NCBI GenBank assembly: GCA_000182565.2
Contig: KQ257468.1
Reading direction: 5' to 3' (one strand)
Source of the DNA: Spizellomyces punctatus DAOM BR117
Taxonomy: Eukaryota
DNA length: 64,000 nucleotides
The position numbers were made by a program, and so were the translations under genes. Below are positions 15,350-57,297 of the stretch, in pieces. Below the pieces are notes generated by a model that was not told where the DNA came from, ran no database searches, and saw nothing but the letters and a program-made list of their open reading frames with translations. The stretch's first letter is position 1. Each line of letters begins with the position of its first letter.

Positions 15350-15633
15350 CGATCCGTACATGCTGTTGGGGGTGCAGGTTCAGGATCATTGCATTGGTCC
15401 AAGCTCTGCGAAGCTTACTAATGCAGCCGAAGATTTATACTTCATTGCCCATAATAGTAACAAATATAAACTTGAGACGATTGAAAGTTATCTCCCGATC
15501 CATACATGCTTTTGGGGGTACAGGTTCAGGATCATAGCATTGGTCCAAGCTCTGCGAAGCTTACTATTCAGATTTAAATTTCATTGCCCATAATAGCAAC
15601 AAATATAAACTTTAGACGATTTAAAGTTGTCTC
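15350..15633. repeat. Imperfect tandem duplication, ~146-bp unit x2, immediately upstream of the GPCR gene
   Basis: Copy 1 15350-15495 and copy 2 15496-15633 share cgatccRtacatgct..gggggtRcaggttcaggatcat.gcattggtccaagctctgcgaagcttacta...ttcattgcccataatagYaacaaatataaactt.agacgatt.aaagtt.tctc. Confidence 0.95.
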
Positions 15634-25379: not shown

Positions 25380-27198
25380 CTATCTACAGGCCGCGATATA
25401 GTTCTCAAAGCCTTGCAAAACATTCGTCACGTTATCCCCAATCTCTTCCACCGCGTATCCTCCTTCCATAACAAAAAGTGTTGGGCAGCGCAGCGAGGAT
25501 AGAGCTCGTCCGATTTGAATATAGGCGGGTGTTGTGAGAAAGAAACCGCCAATTGGATCATTCTAGGAACAGGAGATGTCAATATAATACACCTGTTGGT
25601 CCTAACAGAATTCGGAGGGCATACGGCGTATGTGTCCACACCCAGTGACACAACGACTATCTGAGGATTGTATTCTTTGACGCGGGTGTCAATGATGGTT
25701 TGCAAGGCTTCTATGTACTCCTTCAAAGAAAAAATAAAAAAACTCATGAAGGCCATCCATCGCCCTGTCGAAACCTTGATGTTTAAATCTACCTTATCTT
25801 GTGTTCCCATTTTGAGAGGAACGTTGACATTGAACCCCGCTCCTTCGTTCTCTCCGACCTCATCTTCCGCCCCCCAGTAAAATGGGTAGTCCAATGCTCC
25901 GTGGAGGGAGACATATAAGGGATTACTGTTCTTCAATCTCCCGCAATGAGTTCTTACTTTCCTAAATTAGTCAGTGCCCTCAAATTGGCATACTACCTCA
26001 TAAAAGATCTCTTGTGTCCCATTACCGTGATGGTAGTCTGAGCTTCAAATATCAGCAATGCAAATGCTGCCTTACATAGCGCGAAACAGTCTCGTACCTA
26101 TATCGATGATGGCAACCCTCCCCACCTTTAATACATGGATGAGGTGTCGTACGGCAATAGCCGCATTGTTAAAAAAACAATAGCCACCTGAAGATTGCCA
26201 TTCAGATTGCGAGATTACTCCATTGTTTTTGCTTTAGCAGCTAAGGTTGATGAGGGTAATAACATTACCACATAGATCCCGCTGGGCGTGATGGCCTGCA
26301 GTCGAGAGGTAAGTACTAGTGACATGAAGAATTTGATGTAGTATGTCATTCCATACGACCTGGTGGTCTGCACAATGCGAAAATCCCGTGCGCCTTTTCC
26401 TCTATAAGTAATTCTGCTCCTGTCAATGCTACCTGTGCAGCCTCATATGCAGCTTGGAAGGTGCCTTGTGCCCGCCAAATGTCAGTGGAAGGTGCGGCAA
26501 TCCCAAAAGCTCTTACGAACGAACCTTCGGCGATTACCCCAGTCATGTCAAAACAGCTAGACAAGTCGGGCATAATCTAATCAACCTGCCGTACAGTGAA
26601 GATCTGTGTATGAGAAAAACGCACTAGTAACCAGGTCTTCCCAAGGGACCGCCATCTCGTGAGTAGGGGAAGTTACGTTGAGGCGGGTTTTGCTTCCATT
26701 TCCTTAAGGTTTTAACCATGGAAAATTACTTTGCATCCCAATTAATCCTTTAATAAGGTACTGGACGAACCTCAGGTTGGCAAAATCCCTCACCGCACTC
26801 ACATCTGGGAATACACCCTCAGGGTTGCCACCCACTTTGACCCACTAGTTTTGAATATATGTTAAGGAAGGAACAGGCAACAGCATCCGGCATTTACGGC
26901 CTCTGGACGAAAGTGACCTCCTCGTAAGCGTTCTGAAGATACGCTATGAATTCCTTAGAGTGAACCGCTGCAATAGGGCCCAAACCATAGTCGTTTGGAG
27001 CCACTATTTCACCCAGATTTCGAGCACGTAAACTTGAGAGGATGCTATCGACACGCCCAGTGCACTCTTTGTACGGTACAAAACGGCCGAGCTCAAATTC
27101 CTTTGGGGGACTTCATGGGTTGAGAATTGGAATGCCAAATAGTGATGTGTTTGTGCCTACTTATGAAGACAGTGCTTTTCAGAATATATGACCTTCAT
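25380..27198 (-). CDS. Acetylpolyamine amidohydrolase-like (HDAC/arginase fold) deacetylase
   Basis: MKVIYSEKHCLHN|PPKEFELGRFVPYKECTGRVDSI, FALCRPPG|HHA..LCG|GYCFFNNAAIA, IDID|YHHGNGTQEIFY, SLGVDTYA|NDPIGGF, VMEGGY; about 12 introns. Confidence 0.9.
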
Positions 27199-27711
27199 CT
27201 CGTTGATTTGCCTGTTTATAAAGGCTTGGTAATTCATCTTGAACATGCACAAAGCTACCAGCCACTGATGAGTCAGCCCCATCGGCCAATGTACCAAATC
27301 GCTGCGGACTGAGGAGGAAACGCTTCCCAATCCCTGGAAGGTATTGGATCTGACTTGGTTCGCAAAGTGTGCTAGACTGGCATTGTGTGGACGAACTCCA
27401 CGAGAATGAACTTACTGGAAAATGGTGGCAGGCTACCTCGCAGGAGAATCTGCAACGCAAACTCAAGATGCTTCAGATGTTACAACTTGGACCGTCCAAA
27501 TCCTTGGTGATGGTTTAATTCGCAGTCAGGATGGTAAAAAATCTTGTAAGTCTGTCAGTGTTAACTTCCAAGCAAATCGCTTTGCGAGATCGAGTTGGTG
27601 ACACGACAAGCCGAGATGAGTCATCGTAGCTTTGAGCAGGAAATACTGCTCATTCAAGGTTGAAACGTCCGGAACACTCAATTTTTAATAGCTAGGCTCT
27701 GCTACAAAGCG

Positions 27712-33142: not shown

Positions 33143-33215
33143 GGGCCTATGGCCCAATGGATAAGGCGCCTGACTACGGATCAGGAGATTCGAGGTTCGA
33201 ATCCTCGTAGGCTCG
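33143..33215 (+). tRNA. tRNA-Arg(ACG), intronless
   Basis: GGGCCTA/TAGGCTC acceptor stem, D arm TGGCCCAATGGATAAGGC, anticodon arm CCTGA-CTACGGA-TCAGG, T arm CGAGG-TTCGAAT-CCTCG; T4 run ~20 nt downstream. Confidence 0.97.
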
Positions 33216-44074: not shown

Positions 44075-46004
44075 ATGGAGGCAGACGTTGGAGCTCCCAG
44101 CCAACATCGTGTCTCCACTGAAATACCTACCCAACCGCATAGCCGAGTGGCCAGCAGCGATAAAGGAGAGGCCGATGGCGTGCCTGATACAGAGGGTCAA
44201 GCTGAACCCTCTGCTGAAGGGCCCGTGCTGCCGCCGAAGTCCGTAGAGAATGAGCTTTTGGAAAAAAATGAAGAGTAAATACTTTTCGGGCGGTTTGGTT
44301 GCCTTTTGACCGTTTTGCTCATGGTGTTGGTTCTTGTTGTCCAGCTATCAGCTCCTACTGAGTACATTGACTGTGCTACGAAACCAGCTAACGCAGGCGG
44401 AAGAAGATCTCACAAAACTTATCAATATGAAAGAAGAGGCGCTACAAGATCCTCTATCTTTTGTGGAAAAATTGATGTCCAAGGTGCAGAGAACAGATGC
44501 CCCGTTCCCCCGATGACGAGGTCATACCACGATAATCTAACTCCGCACAAATAGAACTTGGATACTATACCGAAACCTCAAAGAGTTGTCGCAGTTCCCC
44601 ATATCGATCTCTATAAATATCAAGGCGATACAGGTTGGACATATGAAGGGAGCTATCGTTATAGCGGCAAGTCGATTTTTAACAGTTTGCCATACAAGGC
44701 TCCACATCAACCCGTTTTCCAAGAACACGATCGTACTTCAGAAGCGACATCTTTGACCGATCCTTCTCTCCGGGTTGGGGAACACCTCTACCTGATCTTG
44801 GACCAGTGGACGACTCTGAGATTTCCTCAAGCCACGAGATGGAGACGGAACAAGAAAACGTACTAATTATTTTTGTCGCGCTTTCTCTGCTGCCTGTGTT
44901 AATCGTATGTTACACATAGTCCAAAGGTACCCCGGAAGAACGGTCACACACTTTCAATCAGCCGTGGTCAGAAGAAGAGCACGTATGTAGCCACTTCCGT
45001 CTTTCAGAGTCACAAAGTATGTCGTTTTTAGCTTATTATAACATGTCTGTTTCTGTAACAGACTCGGTTGATGGAACTCCTTGAAGTATATCCTGAGGAG
45101 TCGATCGCCACCCGCCGTTTTGAGAAGATTTCTGCTGCGTTAGGAAGCAGGACCTCAAGACAGGTATTACTTTGCATAGTCTGCGGAGTAGTTTTCTTGT
45201 AGAGACCACTGATGTTCGACACACGGTAGGTAGCGAGTCGTGTCCAGAAGCTGTTTGAACCGCGGAGTCGCACTTCTTCTGTAAAGAAGGCATCTACCGC
45301 TAAGCCAACAACCACGCGCGTGTCGGGTACATATTACTCAAATAGGTACGTCATAACAGCATATCAAAGGGGAAGCTCAGGACATGATACCTTCTCTCTA
45401 AAGGTTCAGTGGATCACGATACTTGCATACACCCACGGTTACCATGTCCGACGACGAGGGTGATGATGAGGATATTGGCATTCCGGTTCATCCGGAACTC
45501 AAATCATCTGAGGAATACAAGGTCAATTGATTCATGCCGTGATTTATTTATGTAATTGCTGTTAACATCCTCCATATGCAGGAACTCCTAAGATTACAGA
45601 AGTTGGCGAAGCTCAAGGCCAATGTACCATCTGCACACACTGCGGATCCTGTGCATTACGGATACTCCTGTGATAGATGCCTGGCAGAGCCCATTGTCGG
45701 AGTAGGTCATATTGAATGCATTTGGAGGATGCCACCAAGATTTAAATATTCTGGTAGACTCGATGGAAGTGCCTCGACTGTCCTGAAGAAAGCCAAGTCG
45801 ATCTATGTGATGAATGCATGGACAAAAATTTCCAGAATGGTGGGGTTTTATTCTGCAGGTCCAAGGGTTTATTCGACGTACTCATCTTTGAGCGATTCGC
45901 TAGATCATCACAGCGCTGACCATCGCTTTGAGAAGATAGCAACTCCAGAAGAAACTGATATGCAGGACGATTATGCATATCTTGGATTTCGTAAAGTCGA
46001 ATAA
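44075..46004 (+). CDS. ZZZ3: ZZZ3-like SANT/Myb plus ZZ zinc-finger protein
   Basis: NE|DYQLLLSTLTVLRNQ..EALQDPLSFVEKL, TFNQPWSEEE, LLEVYPEE..RRFEKISAALGSRTSRQ|VASRVQK, ZZ finger HYGYSCDRC..PIVG|TRWKCLDCP..VDLCDEC. Confidence 0.85.
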
Positions 46005-46443
46005 GTTGTCATGGGTGCAAGTTTCCATGCATTGTGTTGGTCTGATTCAACAATTTGTATAATTGTATATGACTGTTCTGCTCGGTTGATGAGGTAGTTC
46101 TCCCGCTAGAGCGGTAAGCTACACTGTTACATAATTTAATAGAGTCTGTATTTCATCCTATAAAATCAAGCTCCTCCTTTCTAATATGACATACATCATC
46201 CAGTCGACTCAACAATCATGATGGGAAGGCGACTGTGAACAGCATCTCACTAGCGTTAGTACAGACCATACTACATGCACCCCAGCGACTTCCAAAGAGA
46301 TTATAGCACTACACTCAGGGATTCAAGCCAAACTCGGCTTTGAACATGTCAACATGTCGGCAATTGGCGACTCCTAAGAACTTGAAGGCTCGTATCTAAA
46401 ATGACACAAATCAATAACTGATCCTGCAGAAGGTGTAATTGTC

Positions 46444-46570
46444 AGGCCGAGCGAGAAAAGATCATCACTGTAGAAGTCTCAACATGAGCAGCGCCTAAGT
46501 GTCGCTATTCAGTGGATTGACAGATATTTTGGGGCAAATGCCACTAATCACTTCTCTTCTCGCTCGGCCT
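46444..46570 (-). ncRNA. Intronic box C/D snoRNA, SNORD110/snoR14-like 18S guide
   Basis: 14-bp perfect terminal stem aggccgagcgagaa/ttctcgctcggcct; box C GTGATTA (46551-46545) and box D ATGA (46465-46462); D' CTGA (46512-46509) preceded by ATCTGTCAATCC, complementary to conserved 18S GGATTGACAGAT. Confidence 0.85.
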
Positions 46571-46679
46571 AACGGGCAGCTGCGACTTACCATGTCACTT
46601 TCACGAGAGCGGAACAAACAGCGTCTATGAAGGGACATGACAAGAGTTAGTCATTGTCAGCGCCCACTTCGTACACACC

Positions 46680-46778
46680 GGATGATTCTTGCATCAGAAC
46701 TTCTTAGAGATTTAGCTTATCATTGATCACTGACAGTGATCTGCCATAGTGTAATTTCCTCCTTTGCAAGAATCACCC
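46680..46778 (-). ncRNA. Intronic box C/D snoRNA, U61/SNORD61-like 18S guide
   Basis: 14-bp terminal stem gggtgattcttgca/tgcaagaatcatcc; 3' end CTCTAAGAAGTT-CTGA matches the recalled U61 3' end and pairs with 18S ACTTCTTAGAG; variant box C AGGAGGA; C' ATGATAA. Confidence 0.88.
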
Positions 46779-47040
46779 ACTCTGATTGTATGACACTCAC
46801 CTCTATGCAGTTCCACCAAATGGGCCACGATACGCCCTTGACAGTGGCATTGACACGGAGTCAGGAGCGCGAAACTTCACCCAAGTAGCGGATGACGCAA
46901 ACGTCAGGCTGACGGCTCGGGGAGAGGTCGCATCGACAATATTATTTGTATGGAGACCACTACTTTGCTACTATCACAAAGATAGGATGTTAACAATGTA
47001 ACACATAAATAGACCATTAAACAGCATGGACGCGCGATCA

Positions 47041-47216
47041 ATCTCAGATTCGCCTTAACATCCAACATTCTTGTCCTTCCCCCAAAGCTGACGTCCGGTA
47101 TGTGGGGAGAAAGCATTACATTTCCTACAACCTCACGCAGCCGATGACTGCTCAGCAGCGGAGTTCTCTCTTGGAGATGAAGGCCAAGTAGGGATACCAA
47201 AGATCTCATCCTTGAC
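47041..47216 (-). ncRNA. Long (~175 nt) intronic box C/D RNA, orphan or scaRNA-like
   Basis: Box C AGGATGA (47212-47206), D' CTGA (47155-47152), hairpin gcagtc-atc-ggctgc, C' GTGAGGT, inserted hairpin ctttctcccca/tgggggaagg, box D CTGA (47047-47044), outer stem catgg..acgcg.atca/tgat..cgcgt.ccatg. Confidence 0.7.
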
Positions 47217-47487
47217 GGTGCCATGATACGCGTTGAACCATGTACATACCATCTTGGATATCGGGCCACTTCCACCGGCGGGGCTCAAGGAGTTTCATTG
47301 ATGGTTTGTTCTTTTGCCGGTCCACAAAGACGATGACTAGGTCATCGAGAGATGGTTGAGGAATACGGAAGCGAGCTGAATTCTGGAGGAAGATAAAGAA
47401 AATAGACATAATCACGTGGTGGCACAGCGCTAGTCGCGGCTGTTGGTCTCTCCGCTCGCAAGTGCTGTATGGCCAAACGCATCTGAC

Positions 47488-51095: not shown

Positions 51096-52172
51096 CTTGA
51101 CGATCTGCACTGAAAGACAATAATACTCTCACAAAGGGCGCGAGTATGAAAAGTTCCCCGGCCGTGTTCAGGTCTCCACACGTCAGCGTCCGTTGTTCCA
51201 ACGTCTTGCTTGCCTACTCCCTAAGCAACAGCCCAAAGGTGAAGCGGCCGCGTGTGGGGTGGGCTTAGTCAAACCAGGTTGGAGTCGGGGTTTCCGGGGC
51301 TCATCTTTCAGTAGTGTATTGGCAATAACAAATGTCTCAACACAATACACCAGGGAAGAAACCGGCGACAACCCGGTTCGGAAAAGCCAAGTAATTCCCT
51401 CCTTACAACCAACCAACTACTACTAGGCCCAATGACACATGCAATACATAATGGTTGTTCTAACCGGGTAACTAAGCCCACCACACGAGAGAAATCCTAC
51501 TAAGCCCTTGATTCCGAAATTCTTTAGTCGGAGGATGTTCAGATACTAAGGTAGATCAGAATTAGACTGGGAATACACATGGGAAAATACAAAGATAATG
51601 CATACCTGCAATCGTTGCAGCATAGTAGTAGCAGCATTTACAAGGGGTTATGTTGTATTTGTCAGGAGGGCGAGGTCCTCGGCACCAGAGTGGCATTCTC
51701 ATGGTGGACTGAGATGTGTTGGGCAGATGCTTGTGTCGAGGGATAAAGAAACAAGAGGGAAGAGGGACAAGGGGGGGTTTATATAGAAAACTGAGTGGAT
51801 ATATTGAGTCATGGGAGCGTCATGCAGGTGGCAACTGCAGAATATTCCTCTCATAGATGGCTGCAAGGGATAGTAATTGCACCATTCATGGCTGCACATA
51901 TTGGACCCGTCTTTTTGTTTATCTTCGTGAGGTTGATGTCACAATAAATGTGGTTAATTCAACTGGCTGCAATGCTCCGTGGCCTGACATTTCTATTTCC
52001 CACACACACTATGCAGTGCAAGGGCAGTGGGATTCTTTTAAGGAATTTGATAAAGAAAAAAAATCGCAATTACAGTACATTAAAAGTCAAGAAAACATGC
52101 ATGAGGTTTTGCTAACGAGAATAACTGTGATCTATGGACTATCTGAGCTAAAGCAGCGATATCAAAGTCCCA

Positions 52173-56216: not shown

Positions 56217-57297
56217 CTATCGAACTCGGACAACGACGAGGTCATGATCTGTGCCACTATTCATCCGAGCACTTTCCAGGTCATCCCCCTCTATCATGCA
56301 CAAGTCAGACTCCGTTCCTGGATCACGATAATAGAAAAAATCATGATCGGAATCATAGCCGATGAGAACAATATAATGTCCGATGAAATCATCTGATGCA
56401 CCGAGCATGGCGTAAGACTTTTGTCCGCACCATGCAAAGCATGAGAACGTCGTAAGGAAAAGGGAACGGGATGTCGATGGAGGCGAACTTGGTGACGAGC
56501 GCGCTGCAACCCCGGACCTTCCTTCGCCTGGTCTAAATGGAATGCTTTCCTCCATTTTATTCCCTCCTACAACTACGCTTTCTCCAGAATCTCGGCACCA
56601 AGACCATTTTGACTTGCTCTTACATTTTCGACATCGTAGAAGCCGTAGATCCACCAGCATAATCACAGCATATACTGTTGACAAGAGGAATCGTCGTATA
56701 TCGTCGAGTGCTAATGTCAGACCAACAACTCGGACTCGATTGTCATGTGCAGCAGCAAACAATGATTGAACCCGTCGTCGGTCCAGTGTCCAGGTATCAC
56801 GGTAAAATTCCTTTGAGGAGTATTGCCAGTTGACTCCAATATATGAGGTATAATATGCTAAGAAAGTGATTTAAAGGGATATTAGCATGCGATTCTCTGA
56901 CTCGTCCCTCGCTAGCTCGAATAAGGGGCATTTCCACTCTTAAATGCTTTTCTAAAGGCATCTGATAGGCCATTTCACCAATTTCGTAAGATACTCACTG
57001 AAATCCTCCACGCTAAACCTCCTCAGTATATATGCCAAATCAATCGTCCAAACAGATTCCAGAGGACACTCCTTTCTCAGATCCATCAACGAATGCTTCT
57101 GCCCAAGCGCAGAGAGGACCATGCTTACACAGGCCAAACCACAGTCCCAGCTTGATAGCTAGCACTGTGCCGTTAGTGTCATTGTTCTTTTCACATAAAG
57201 TTTGCATACATGGCGATGCTATTAATATTATGAAACCCACCTGTTGGCAGTGGGGAACGCTAGCCAGCGTCGCTGGTAGCACAGACGACAACCCCAT
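56217..57297 (-). CDS. GUCD1: GUCD1-like (C39 peptidase-like fold) protein
   Basis: VPHCQQ|LSSWDCGLACVSMVL, SVWTIDLAYIL, FIGHYIVLIGYD, YYRDP, ARMNSGTDHDL. Confidence 0.88.

What the first reader, a model, noticed from the sequence alone, without database searches (positions are those of the whole stretch)
46140..47400. Hidden non-coding host gene carrying three intronic box C/D RNAs
Seen: this gap has no credible ORF, yet the minus strand has strong splice signals defining introns of ~280 nt (47249-46971), 176 nt (46800-46625) and ~165-195 nt (46590-46424 or 46396), several times the usual intron size here. Each intron holds one C/D RNA closed by a long terminal stem, and the spliced exons encode only ~19 codons. 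Established: one-snoRNA-per-intron non-coding hosts occur in animals (GAS5/UHG type) and filamentous fungi. Inference: this is an unannotated polycistronic guide-RNA locus in an early-diverging fungus, transcribed head-to-head with FIBP, and it may combine rRNA and snRNA guides.
Basis: partly seen in the sequence, partly recalled or inferred. Interest (0 to 1): 0.85.

Follow-up and report, generated by a model that had tools for sequence, protein, structure and literature searches.

The report
Non-coding host gene for intronic snoRNAs
This gap holds a real spliced, polyadenylated RNA with no protein-coding capacity whose oversized introns carry small RNAs that guide ribosomal RNA methylation, an arrangement already known from animals and other fungi.

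Summary
The finding largely holds.

**Host transcript.** RNA-seq shows a minus-strand transcript:
- It starts near 47352 and carries a poly(A) tail added at 46132.
- One junction, 46591|46395, is read directly (GT..AG, 195 nt skipped).
- Depth and a metatranscriptome contig that equals exon 2 fit the other two introns.
- The 570-nt spliced RNA has no ATG ORF longer than 27 codons.

**Intron 2** holds a U61/SNORD61-type box C/D snoRNA. It is Rfam's best local match (29.2 bits, below the gathering score). Its guide pairs with 18S so that the known methylated U sits opposite the fifth guide position upstream of box D.

**Intron 3** holds a SNORD110/snoR14/Nc-CD44-type snoRNA with a 12-bp D' guide.

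Both are clamped by unusually long terminal stems (14 and about 20 bp) and have non-consensus C boxes.

**Intron 1** holds only a candidate RNA of about 180 nt. It has the same box geometry but a 3-bp stem, no Rfam relative and no target found, so it remains unverified.

No relatives could be fetched, so conservation is untested.

**Verdict:** an ordinary new member of the known UHG/GAS5-like class, as described in Neurospora.

The parts
46132..47352 (-). Host transcript (about 1.22 kb primary, 570 nt spliced), polyadenylated and non-coding
   Evidence: reads lie almost only on the minus direction between 46133 and 47352, with none at 47353-47474. 17 reads carry a T-run before 46132, which is a poly(A) tail on the minus strand, and the genome there is not A-rich; longest ATG ORF is 27 aa.
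47250..47352 (-). Exon 1 (5' end approximate)
   Evidence: Depth is 12.1 at 47292-47352 and 0 beyond. GTATGT 5' splice site at 47249.
46971..47249 (-). Intron 1, 279 nt (GTATGT..TTAAC..TAG). The tandem acceptor TAGTAG allows an end at 46971 or 46968.
   Evidence: Sequence. Depth is 0.5-4.3 against 9-17 in exon 2. No junction reads reached the listing threshold.
47039..47218 (-). Candidate box C/D RNA 'sno1', about 180 nt. C-like box AGGAUGA at 47212-47206, D box CUGA at 47047-47044, 3-bp stem 47216-47214 / 47043-47041. Target unknown.
   Evidence: it is the only relaxed C motif in the intron, at intron positions 38-44, the same as in intron 2. The D box lies 73 nt from the intron end. No Rfam match, no rRNA target, no excess structure.
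46801..46970 (-). Exon 2
   Evidence: Depth 9-17. A 168-nt contig of the root metatranscriptome run X1 covers exactly 46801-46968.
46625..46800 (-). Intron 2, 176 nt (GTGAGT..CTAAC..TAG)
   Evidence: Sequence. Depth is 2.1-3.4.
46680..46778 (-). 'sno2', a U61/SNORD61-type box C/D snoRNA. 14-bp terminal stem 46778-46765 / 46693-46680, C box AGGAGGA 46763-46757, guide 46710-46698, D box CUGA 46697-46694.
   Evidence: Rfam snoU61 RF01170 at 46690-46768 over the full model: 29.2 bits, E 6e-4 in 1.7 kb and 0.022 in the whole window. The guide pairs with 18S 1370-1382 of L055 with the fifth position on U1374. Stem. Fold z = -3.4.
46591..46624 (-). Exon 3 (34 nt)
   Evidence: Junction reads and loose ends at 46591 and 46396 spell the neighbouring exon.
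46396..46590 (-). Intron 3, 195 nt (GTAAGT..TAG), junction read directly
   Evidence: joint 46395 to 46591 skips 195 nt, with ends CT..AC on the + strand. 7 reads from 5 starts.
46442..46572 (-). 'sno3', a SNORD110/HBII-55/snoR14/Nc-CD44-type box C/D snoRNA. About 20-bp stem 46572-46553 / 46461-46442, C box GUGAUUA 46551-46545, D' guide 46525-46514, D' CUGA 46512-46509, GUGAUGA 46468-46462 (C', or its AUGA acting as D), CUGA 46445-46442.
   Evidence: The Rfam SNORD110 alignment shares the guide (16.9 bits). 12 Watson-Crick pairs with 18S 1224-1235 of L055, fifth position on U1227. Stem. Fold z = -3.8. Read depth peaks at 55 over 46499-46559, against 12-14 beside it.
46132..46395 (-). Exon 4 with poly(A) site
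   Evidence: Depth 143-224. Poly(A) tails at 46132.
47353..47486 (.). Shared divergent promoter region (about 134 bp) between the host start and the FIBP ATG at 47487. Contains CACGTG at 47413-47418.
   Evidence: Depth limits. FIBP Pfam domains downstream. Sequence.

Best explanation
Window 46132-47352 (minus strand) is a UHG/GAS5-type non-coding snoRNA host gene. It is inferred to be an RNA polymerase II transcript. It starts about 134 bp from the ATG of the divergent FIBP gene, is spliced at three oversized introns and is polyadenylated at 46132.

Its exons carry no usable ORF. The products that matter are box C/D snoRNAs released from the excised introns, one per intron.

Intron 2 gives a U61/SNORD61-type guide. 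It pairs with the 18S sequence ACUUCUUAGAG and places a U opposite the fifth guide position upstream of box D. This is the site known as Um1442 in human and Um1381 in Arabidopsis.

Intron 3 gives a SNORD110/HBII-55/snoR14/Nc-CD44-type guide. Its D' element pairs with GGAUUGACAGAU of 18S and selects the site known as Um1288 in human, Um1232 in Arabidopsis and Um1227 in Neurospora.

In both RNAs a long helix made of intron sequence (14 and about 20 bp) abuts the C and D boxes in the layout stem-A-box C ... box D-stem. It presumably holds the two boxes together so that the kink-turn can form and snoRNP proteins can bind before exonucleases trim the intron.

Intron 1 probably yields a third, longer (about 180 nt) C/D RNA of unknown target.

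Shown: the transcript, its strand, its poly(A) site, one junction, lack of an ORF, the boxes, the stems and the guide-target pairing. Inferred: splicing of introns 1 and 2, release and stability of the small RNAs, the methylation itself, and the role of the stems.
For: **RNA-seq**
- Minus-direction depth runs from 46133 to 47352.
- 17 reads carry poly(A) tails at 46132.
- The GT..AG joint 46591|46395 is seen in 7 reads from 5 starts, and 20 and 10 loose ends at the two exon edges spell the partner exon.
- Exon/intron depth contrasts fit the other two introns.
- A contig of run X1 equals exon 2 (46801-46968).
- No + strand reads lie between 46316 and 47474.

**Coding capacity**
- The longest ATG ORF in the 570-nt spliced RNA is 27 aa.
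- Pfam gave nothing above cut-off for 4 of 4 local ORFs.

**sno2**
- Rfam snoU61 matches end to end at 29.2 bits, E 6e-4, with the guide and D box identical to the consensus.
- It is still E 0.022 against the whole 64-kb window, where it is the only snoRNA match listed.
- The guide forms 13 bp with 18S of the rDNA locus L055, and the fifth position falls on a U.
- The table of PMC3511168 (passage read) lists AtU61 Um1381 and human U61 Um1442.

**sno3**
- 12 of 12 Watson-Crick pairs with 18S, followed by A and CUGA.
- The same guide appears in the Rfam SNORD110 consensus.
- PMC2780460 Table 1 (passages read) lists Nc CD44 as 18S-Um1227, a D' guide, intronic, with homologues S. pombe snR82, At snoR14 and HBII-55.
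- PMC3511168 lists AtsnoR14 Um1232 and HBII-55 Um1288.

**Stems and geometry**
- Inverted repeats of 14 nt (93%) and 21 nt (90%).
- 0 of 200 shuffles fold as well.
- The relaxed C motif occurs once in intron 1 and once in intron 2, both at intron positions 38-44. In intron 3 it occurs at 40-46 and again at 123-129 (GUGAUGA).
- The motif frequency in the window is 143 per 128,000 positions.
- The D boxes lie 73, 69 and 66 (or 46) nt from the intron ends.

**Precedent**
- N. crassa has UHG-like non-coding hosts with one C/D snoRNA per intron (PMC2780460, passages read).
Against: - Both Rfam matches are below the families' gathering scores (29.2 against 55, and 16.9 against 64).
- All three C boxes depart from RUGAUGA (AGGAUGA, AGGAGGA, GUGAUUA).
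- Junctions of introns 1 and 2 were not listed by the read laying. Exons 1-3 are about ten times shallower than exon 4, so a separate start near exon 4 is not excluded.
- Read depth over sno1 and sno2 is no higher than over the rest of their introns. Only sno3 shows a peak. The library is not a small-RNA library.
- sno1 has no Rfam relative at E up to 10.
- sno1 has no convincing complementarity to 18S, 5.8S or the first two thirds of the LSU. Its best guide scores were matched by 50 of 50 and 49 of 50 shuffles.
- sno1 has no excess structure and only a 3-bp stem.
- The rRNA used as target comes from another, unknown eukaryote (L055, a contaminant contig in a bacterial MAG), not from this organism. 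The last third of the LSU and all snRNAs were unavailable.
- Simple guide-plus-CTGA matches are not rare. 9 hits at 7 sites were found in the window, 5 sites elsewhere, without obvious C boxes.
- No related genome could be examined, so conservation is untested. 23 of 23 metagenome hits were not close relatives.
Confidence: 0.85

Rival explanations
1. The locus is a two-snoRNA host. Intron 1 is merely a long intron, and its AGGAUGA and CUGA are chance look-alikes, so no stable RNA comes from it.
For: - No Rfam match at E up to 10.
- No target: shuffles reach its best guide scores in 50 of 50 and 49 of 50 trials.
- The bipartite acetylation-guide test fails.
- Fold z = +0.38.
- Only a 3-bp stem, whereas the other two have 14 and about 20 bp.
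- Read depth is 0.5-4.3.
Against: - The intron is 279 nt, against 58-66 nt for the two neighbouring FIBP introns I read by eye, and something must fill it.
- Its single C-like box sits at intron positions 38-44, exactly as in intron 2. The chance of this is about 0.01 given a motif frequency of 0.0011 per nt. This was judged after the fact.
- It has the same stem-A-box C ... box D-stem layout, and the D box is 73 nt from the 3' splice site against 69 in intron 2.
- Orphan C/D snoRNAs of 137-212 nt are listed for N. crassa (PMC2780460 Table 1).
Confidence: 0.4
2. The transcript is a protein-coding or micropeptide mRNA (for example the 19- or 27-codon ORF) that happens to host snoRNAs, as ribosomal-protein genes do.
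For: Short ATG ORFs exist, of 19 aa starting at position 55 and 27 aa across the exon 3/4 junction. Many snoRNA hosts in other organisms are coding (established knowledge).
Against: - The longest ORF is 27 aa in 570 nt, with stops in all frames.
- No Pfam family passes its cut-off for the local ORFs.
- N. crassa cluster hosts likewise carry only short ORFs and are regarded as non-coding (PMC2780460).
Confidence: 0.06
3. The small RNAs are made from their own promoters or from a longer read-through unit, and the spliced poly(A) RNA is a by-product or mainly a separate transcript of exon 4.
For: Exon 4 is about ten times deeper than exons 1-3, and depth falls sharply at 46377-46395. Independently transcribed snoRNAs inside introns are known (SNORD13 in Drosophila, PMC9226516, passages read).
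Against: - Junction reads join exon 3 to exon 4.
- The library is strongly biased to 3' ends (60-nt reads, poly(A) tails), which by itself explains the gradient.
- The boxes lie at fixed distances from the splice sites in all three introns, as expected for splicing-dependent processing.
- There are no reads upstream of 47353.
Confidence: 0.05

Closest known systems
UHG-like non-coding snoRNA cluster hosts of Neurospora crassa (clusters I-V; Liu et al. 2009, PMC2780460)
   Same: It is a fungal, multi-intron, spliced host with only short ORFs and one box C/D snoRNA per intron. The snoRNAs lie a few tens of nucleotides from the splice sites. One member, Nc CD44, carries the same 18S D' guide and is also intronic.
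   Different: The snoRNA set differs: the 55 N. crassa C/D snoRNAs in Table 1, as read, include no U61-type guide. The terminal stems here are much longer. Whether this host is orthologous to any N. crassa cluster is unknown.
Mammalian GAS5 / UHG (SNHG) genes
   Same: It is a polyadenylated, spliced, non-coding RNA whose introns each carry one box C/D snoRNA, and the exons are dispensable carriers (established knowledge; cited as the model in PMC2780460).
   Different: This host is much smaller (1.2 kb, 3 introns). A 5'TOP start and NMD sensitivity were not examined. The snoRNA content is unrelated.
U61 / SNORD61 family (Rfam RF01170, RF00270; clan CL00067)
   Same: The guide plus D box, CUCUAAGAAGUUCUGA, is identical to the family consensus. 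The alignment runs end to end over the model. The target is the 18S U known as Um1442 in human and Um1381 in Arabidopsis (PMC3511168).
   Different: The score is below the gathering threshold. The C box is AGGAGGA instead of GUGAUGA. The terminal stem is 14 bp instead of about 4 bp. It sits in a non-coding host.
SNORD110 / HBII-55 / At snoR14 / S. pombe snR82 / Nc CD44 (Rfam clan CL00076)
   Same: The 12-nt D' guide AUCUGUCAAUCC is followed by CUGA, and the 18S target U is the same. The location is intronic, as for Nc CD44.
   Different: Apart from the guide the sequence is unlike the Rfam model (16.9 bits). C and D' are 32 nt apart with a small hairpin between them. The C box is GUGAUUA. A stem of about 20 bp swallows the 3'-terminal CUGA, so the working D box may be the AUGA of GUGAUGA. 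No counterpart to the 26S-Cm776 D guide of Nc CD44 was found.

Membership tests
Box C/D snoRNA (general), sno2 and sno3 | Box C (RUGAUGA) near the 5' end and box D (CUGA) near the 3' end, brought together by a terminal stem | tested here: met
   sno2: AGGAGGA and CUGA flanked by a 14-bp stem. sno3: GUGAUUA with AUGA or CUGA flanked by a stem of about 20 bp. The GA dinucleotides are kept, but both C boxes deviate from consensus at one or two U/G positions.
Box C/D snoRNA (general), sno2 and sno3 | A guide of 10 bp or more to rRNA ending next to D or D', with the target nucleotide opposite the fifth position | tested here: met
   13 bp (2 G-U) and 12 bp (all Watson-Crick) to the 18S of L055. The fifth position falls on U1374 and U1227. 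The rRNA is from another eukaryote.
Box C/D snoRNA (general), all three | Stable small RNA bound by fibrillarin/Nop56/Nop58/Snu13 | not testable with these tools
   Only a poly(A)-type RNA-seq run was available. A depth peak of 55 over the sno3 5' half is suggestive. There is none for sno1 or sno2.
Box C/D snoRNA (general), sno1 | C and D boxes, terminal stem and an identifiable guide | tested here: inconclusive
   AGGAUGA and CUGA with a 3-bp stem, in the same geometry as sno2. No target was found in 18S, 5.8S or the 5' two thirds of the LSU. No Rfam hit.
U61/SNORD61 (Rfam CL00067) | Covariance-model score at or above Rfam's gathering score | tested here: not met
   29.2 bits against 55. E is 6e-4 locally and 0.022 for the whole window.
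U61/SNORD61 (Rfam CL00067) | D guide selecting the 18S U in ACUUCUUAGAGGGAC (Um1442 human, Um1381 Arabidopsis) | tested here: met
   Site names come from the PMC3511168 table and the PMC11550049 table.
SNORD110/snoR14/Nc CD44 (Rfam CL00076) | Covariance-model score at or above Rfam's gathering score | tested here: not met
   16.9 bits against 64. Only the guide region aligns.
SNORD110/snoR14/Nc CD44 (Rfam CL00076) | D' guide selecting the 18S U in GGAUUGACAGAU (Um1288 human, Um1232 Arabidopsis, Um1227 N. crassa) | tested here: met
   Site names.
UHG/GAS5-type non-coding snoRNA host gene | Spliced, polyadenylated transcript | tested here: met
   Poly(A) tails at 46132 and the joint 46591|46395. 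Introns 1 and 2 are supported only by depth and by the X1 contig.
UHG/GAS5-type non-coding snoRNA host gene | No conserved or long ORF in the spliced RNA | tested here: met
   The longest ATG ORF is 27 aa. No Pfam family passes its cut-off. Conservation is not testable.
UHG/GAS5-type non-coding snoRNA host gene | One snoRNA per intron; introns conserved and exons divergent among relatives | tested here: inconclusive
   One element per intron was seen (2 firm, 1 candidate). No relatives were obtained.
snR4/snR45/SNORD13 acetylation guides (considered for sno1) | Two antisense elements flanking the acetylated C of 18S helix 34 or helix 45 | tested here: not met
   The best bipartite scores of 10 and 11 were reached by 271 of 300 and 179 of 300 shuffles.
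U14 (considered for sno1) | Match to the U14 model, with its 18S-complementary domains | tested here: not met
   No U14 match at E up to 10 in a 221-nt search. The complementarity scan lists no helix between sno1 and the first 190 nt of the 18S.

The most novel reading that the evidence does not exclude
Two bolder readings remain open.

First, intron 1 may encode a new orphan box C/D RNA of about 180 nt with no counterpart in Rfam. Its target would lie outside the rRNA regions I could test: the 3' third of the LSU, an snRNA, a tRNA, or a non-methylation role.

Second, sno3 may form its kink-turn from a covarying non-consensus pair. Box C GUGAUUA would pair with box D AUGA, giving a U-A pair in place of the usual G-C pair, clamped by a stem of about 20 bp.

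Together these would point to a lineage-specific way of building intronic snoRNPs around very long intron-derived stems.
Probability: 0.3. Interest if true: 0.4.

Novelty: new member of a known kind. Interest (0 to 1): 0.3.

Why it matters
- It adds an unannotated gene to what looked like an empty gap, and it explains three oversized introns.
- It shows that this organism keeps two ancient 18S methylation guides that budding yeast has no counterpart for in the table of PMC3511168. The U61 type is also absent from the published N. crassa list as I read it.
- For annotation, it is a reminder that ORF-free, intron-rich gaps beside divergent promoters in fungi are good places to look for snoRNA hosts.
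- It does not change what is known about how such loci work.

Tried and rejected
1. **Whole genome.** None is held for this window, so the organism's own rRNA and snRNAs could not be used.
2. **Metagenome scan with the sno2 guide 18-mer.** It returned 23 loci.
   - 0 of 23 also carry the sno3 guide.
   - On reading the contexts, most look like chance matches in unrelated DNA.
   - L001, and perhaps L007, are U61-like RNAs of distant eukaryotes.
   - There is therefore no synteny or covariation test.
3. **GTDB scan with a recalled 18S motif.** Of 66 loci, about a dozen are eukaryotic rDNA contaminants. L055 gave 18S, 5.8S and LSU model positions 1-2109 of 3401.
4. **Attempts to get the rest of the LSU.** Three requests did not complete by the machine, and one DNA search found only the contig itself.
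5. **Viral-contig scans with the target-sense of three unassigned guides.** All the loci they stored, 209 in total, show no likeness to rDNA. They are chance matches.
6. **Loose complementarity scan allowing G-U.** It gave 253 11-mer hits against 235 in shuffles, so it has no discriminating power. A full-length RNAduplex scan timed out and gave meaningless long duplexes.
7. **Acetylation-guide idea for sno1.** Rejected.
8. **My first recollection that sno3 equals yeast snR55.** This was wrong. PMC2780460 Table 1 assigns snR55 to Um1265 and the present site (Um1227) to Nc CD44/snR82/HBII-55.
9. **Protein Atlas look-up of a FIBP exon, to place the organism.** No usable hit.
10. **Earlier-findings look-ups.** Nothing on this genome, and nothing relevant elsewhere.
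11. **Weak Rfam rows** (SpR20 sRNA at 47420-47477 on the + strand, ZNRD1-AS1_3) and the MAT2A_A row. These are far below their thresholds, and I treat them as chance.
Full report
**1. What is in the sequence**

On the minus strand, the gap between a + strand gene ending near 46190 and the FIBP gene starting at 47487 contains three GT..AG intervals with fungal-type branch sites:
- 47249-46971 (279 nt, GTATGT..TTAAC..TAG)
- 46800-46625 (176 nt, GTGAGT..CTAAC..TAG)
- 46590-46396 (195 nt, GTAAGT..TAG)

No frame in the region is convincingly open. Stop-to-stop frames reach at most 126 aa. Four of four tested gave no Pfam family passing its cut-off.

Joining the proposed exons gives a 570-nt RNA.

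The FIBP assignment of the divergent neighbour is confirmed (Pfam PF05427, E 4.5e-40 and 7.5e-16). Two FIBP introns that I read by eye from the sequence printed are 66 and 58 nt. The three introns here are therefore 3 to 5 times larger. The FIBP introns were not verified by reads.

**2. Is it transcribed and spliced?**

One search for sequencing runs and one laying of reads were allowed. In the raw-read RNA run X8 (60-nt reads, about 6% of the run read, 1367 reads laid):
- Reads between 46133 and 47352 lie almost entirely in the minus direction.
- None lies at 47353-47474.
- Seventeen reads carry a T-run before 46132 on the + strand. This is a poly(A) tail on a minus-strand RNA, at a place where the genome is not A-rich.
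- One joint passed the listing threshold. It runs from 46395 to 46591, skips 195 nt, has ends CT..AC on the + strand (GT..AG on the minus strand), and is seen in 7 reads from 5 starts.
- Twenty and ten loose ends at the two edges spell the partner exon.

The other two junctions were not listed. They are supported indirectly:
- Depth is 12 in exon 1, 9-17 in exon 2 and 14 in exon 3. It is 0.5-4.3 in intron 1 and 2.1-3.4 in intron 2.
- A 168-nt contig of a root metatranscriptome run (X1) covers exactly 46801-46968, which is exon 2 and nothing else.

That contig stops 2 nt short of 46970. The acceptor is a tandem TAGTAG, so an alternative exon start at 46967 is possible. This is inference only.

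Exon 4 is about ten times deeper (143-224) than the upstream exons. The reads are short and tail-proximal, so I read this as 3' bias. A separate start is not excluded.

Run X9 laid nothing, and X3 (probably DNA) is colinear with the window.

**3. The intron 2 RNA**

Rfam's best local match is snoU61 (RF01170) at 46690-46768 on the minus strand. It runs end to end over the model at 29.2 bits, E 6e-4 in 1.7 kb. Against the whole window it is E 0.022, where it is the only snoRNA row at E up to 0.05. This is below the gathering score of 55.

The alignment shows the guide and D box, CUCUAAGAAGUUCUGA, identical to the consensus.

To test the target I needed an 18S sequence. A scan of GTDB genomes with a short 18S motif brought in eukaryotic rDNA contaminants. 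L055 holds a complete 18S, a 5.8S and about two thirds of an LSU.

The guide 46710-46698 forms 13 pairs (2 G-U) with 18S 1370-1382 of L055, directly followed by CUGA. The fifth position falls on U1374 in GACU[U]CUUAGAGG.

PMC3511168 (table passage) lists this family as AtU61 Um1381 and human U61 Um1442, with no yeast entry. PMC11550049 (table passage) lists Um1442 with SNORD61.

The C box is AGGAGGA (46763-46757), not RUGAUGA. A 14-bp helix (46778-46765 with 46693-46680, 93% complementary) abuts both boxes. The intron folds far better than shuffles (z = -3.4, 0 of 200 as stable).

**4. The intron 3 RNA**

The segment 46525-46514, AUCUGUCAAUCC, is followed by A and CUGA. It is the D' guide of Rfam SNORD110, which is the only part that aligns (16.9 bits). 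It forms 12 Watson-Crick pairs with 18S 1224-1235 of L055, and the fifth position falls on U1227 in GGA[U]UGACAG.

N. crassa Nc CD44 is described as 18S-Um1227, a D' guide, intron-encoded, with homologues S. pombe snR82, Arabidopsis snoR14 and human HBII-55 (PMC2780460 Table 1). PMC3511168 lists AtsnoR14 Um1232 and HBII-55 Um1288. PMC11550049 lists Um1288 with SNORD110. My initial recollection that this was yeast snR55 was wrong, because that family serves Um1265.

A helix of 20-21 bp (46572-46553 with 46461-46442, 90%; fold z = -3.8, 0 of 200) encloses the RNA.

Two readings of the 3' boxes are possible.
- **Reading A:** GUGAUGA (46468-46462) is C', and CUGA (46445-46442) is D. The 16 nt between them would then be a guide, but they are fully paired to the 5' flank. 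I found no target for them (44 of 50 shuffles score as well).
- **Reading B:** the AUGA within GUGAUGA acts as box D.

I favour reading B, with moderate confidence, for these reasons:
- It gives exactly the layout of sno2: stem, one A, a 7-nt C box, then a 4-nt D box followed directly by the stem.
- It puts D 66 nt from the intron end, against 69 in sno2.
- It pairs the unusual U at C-box position 6 (GUGAUUA) with the unusual A at D-box position 1.

Read depth peaks at 55 over 46499-46559, against 12-14 on either side. This is the only hint of a stable small RNA in these data.

**5. The intron 1 RNA**

Intron 1 has a single relaxed C motif, AGGAUGA. It sits at intron positions 38-44, which are the same positions as in intron 2; in intron 3 the motif is at 40-46. 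The motif occurs 143 times in 128,000 positions of the window, so a hit within such a 9-nt span has a chance of about 0.01. This was judged after the fact.

A CUGA lies 73 nt from the intron end. With the same one-A spacer, the flanks form C-G, U-A and G-U pairs. That would give an RNA of about 180 nt (47218-47039).

Against it:
- No Rfam match at E up to 10.
- No long stem.
- No excess structure (z = -0.12 for the intron, +0.38 for the RNA).
- Low read depth.
- No target in 18S, 5.8S or the first two thirds of the LSU.
- A test for bipartite pairing around the two acetylated cytidines of 18S, in the manner of snR4/snR45/SNORD13 (PMC9226516, passages read), gave scores that 271 of 300 and 179 of 300 shuffles reach.

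Long orphan C/D snoRNAs of 137, 177 and 212 nt are listed for N. crassa, so the size is not odd.

I put the chance that sno1 is a real stable C/D RNA at roughly 0.55-0.6.

**6. Mechanism**

The best-supported picture is the classical one. A host transcript is made from a promoter shared with FIBP (about 134 bp between the ends) and spliced. The excised introns are debranched and trimmed down to snoRNPs that assembled on the C/D kink-turn. The spliced exons have no coding role.

The fixed distances of box C from the 5' splice site (38-46 nt) and of box D from the 3' splice site (66-73 nt) in all three introns fit splicing-coupled assembly. This is comparable to the distances discussed for N. 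crassa and animals in PMC2780460.

The long stems presumably substitute for weak C boxes by holding C and D together. That is inference.

**7. Comparison and novelty**

Non-coding, multi-intron, one-snoRNA-per-intron hosts are described for N. crassa and likened there to mammalian UHG/gas5 (PMC2780460).

Both identified guides belong to families traced to the last eukaryotic common ancestor (PMC3511168).

The fungal snoRNAome survey (PMC5824354) does not use the names U61 or SNORD110 in its main text (0 occurrences each). I could not see its supplements, so I make no claim that these families are unreported in early-branching fungi.

No relatives of this locus could be fetched. One distant U61-like RNA, in L001 (a contig of 69% G+C), also has AGGAUGA and a 12-bp terminal stem. 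The odd C box and long stem may therefore be old features of this family. That rests on one sequence only.

**Verdict.** The finding is real and well read by the first stage. It is a new member of a known kind.

Noticed in passing
window 27254-27264 (+), 56951-56961 (+), 51312-51323 (-), 26776-26786 (-), 15384-15395 (-): Five further sites have 11-12 nt perfectly complementary to the L055 rRNA, followed within one base by CTGA. Their contexts show no obvious C box, and Rfam lists nothing there. They may be chance or unrecognised snoRNAs.
   Followed up: partly
L001:700-900 (metagenome contig, 69% G+C): A U61-like RNA of a distant eukaryote has the same guide, a C box AGGAUGA and a 12-bp terminal stem with one mismatch. 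It resembles the sno2 design.
   Followed up: partly
L055 (contig of a MAG labelled Hyphomicrobiales); also L027, L036, L057, L069, L079 and others: Complete or partial eukaryotic rDNA units sit inside assemblies filed as bacteria, which means contamination of those genome records.
   Followed up: partly
window 46227-46228: About 15% of RNA reads (18 of 121 and 14 of 120) show an adjacent two-base difference in exon 4 (A>C, G>C on the + strand). It is probably a strain variant among the pooled runs.
   Followed up: no
window 45543-46193 (+): A convergent + strand transcript (depth 20-46 up to about 46193) overlaps the host gene's 3' end tail to tail. Its last ORF (45543-46004, 153 aa, Cys-rich) has no Pfam family.
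   Followed up: no
window 47413-47418: A CACGTG palindrome lies in the roughly 134-bp region between the host start and the FIBP ATG. It is a possible shared promoter element (sequence).
   Followed up: no
window 46968-46973: There is a tandem acceptor TAGTAG at the end of intron 1. The X1 contig stops at 46968 rather than 46970, which would fit use of the second AG. This is inference only.
   Followed up: no
window 33143-33215 (+): One tRNA gene is the only Rfam match in the window above a gathering score.
   Followed up: no
window 46984-47001 and 47116-47133: An imperfect 18-nt inverted repeat (72%) pairs the middle of the sno1 candidate with the branch-site region of intron 1. Its meaning is unknown.
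   Followed up: no
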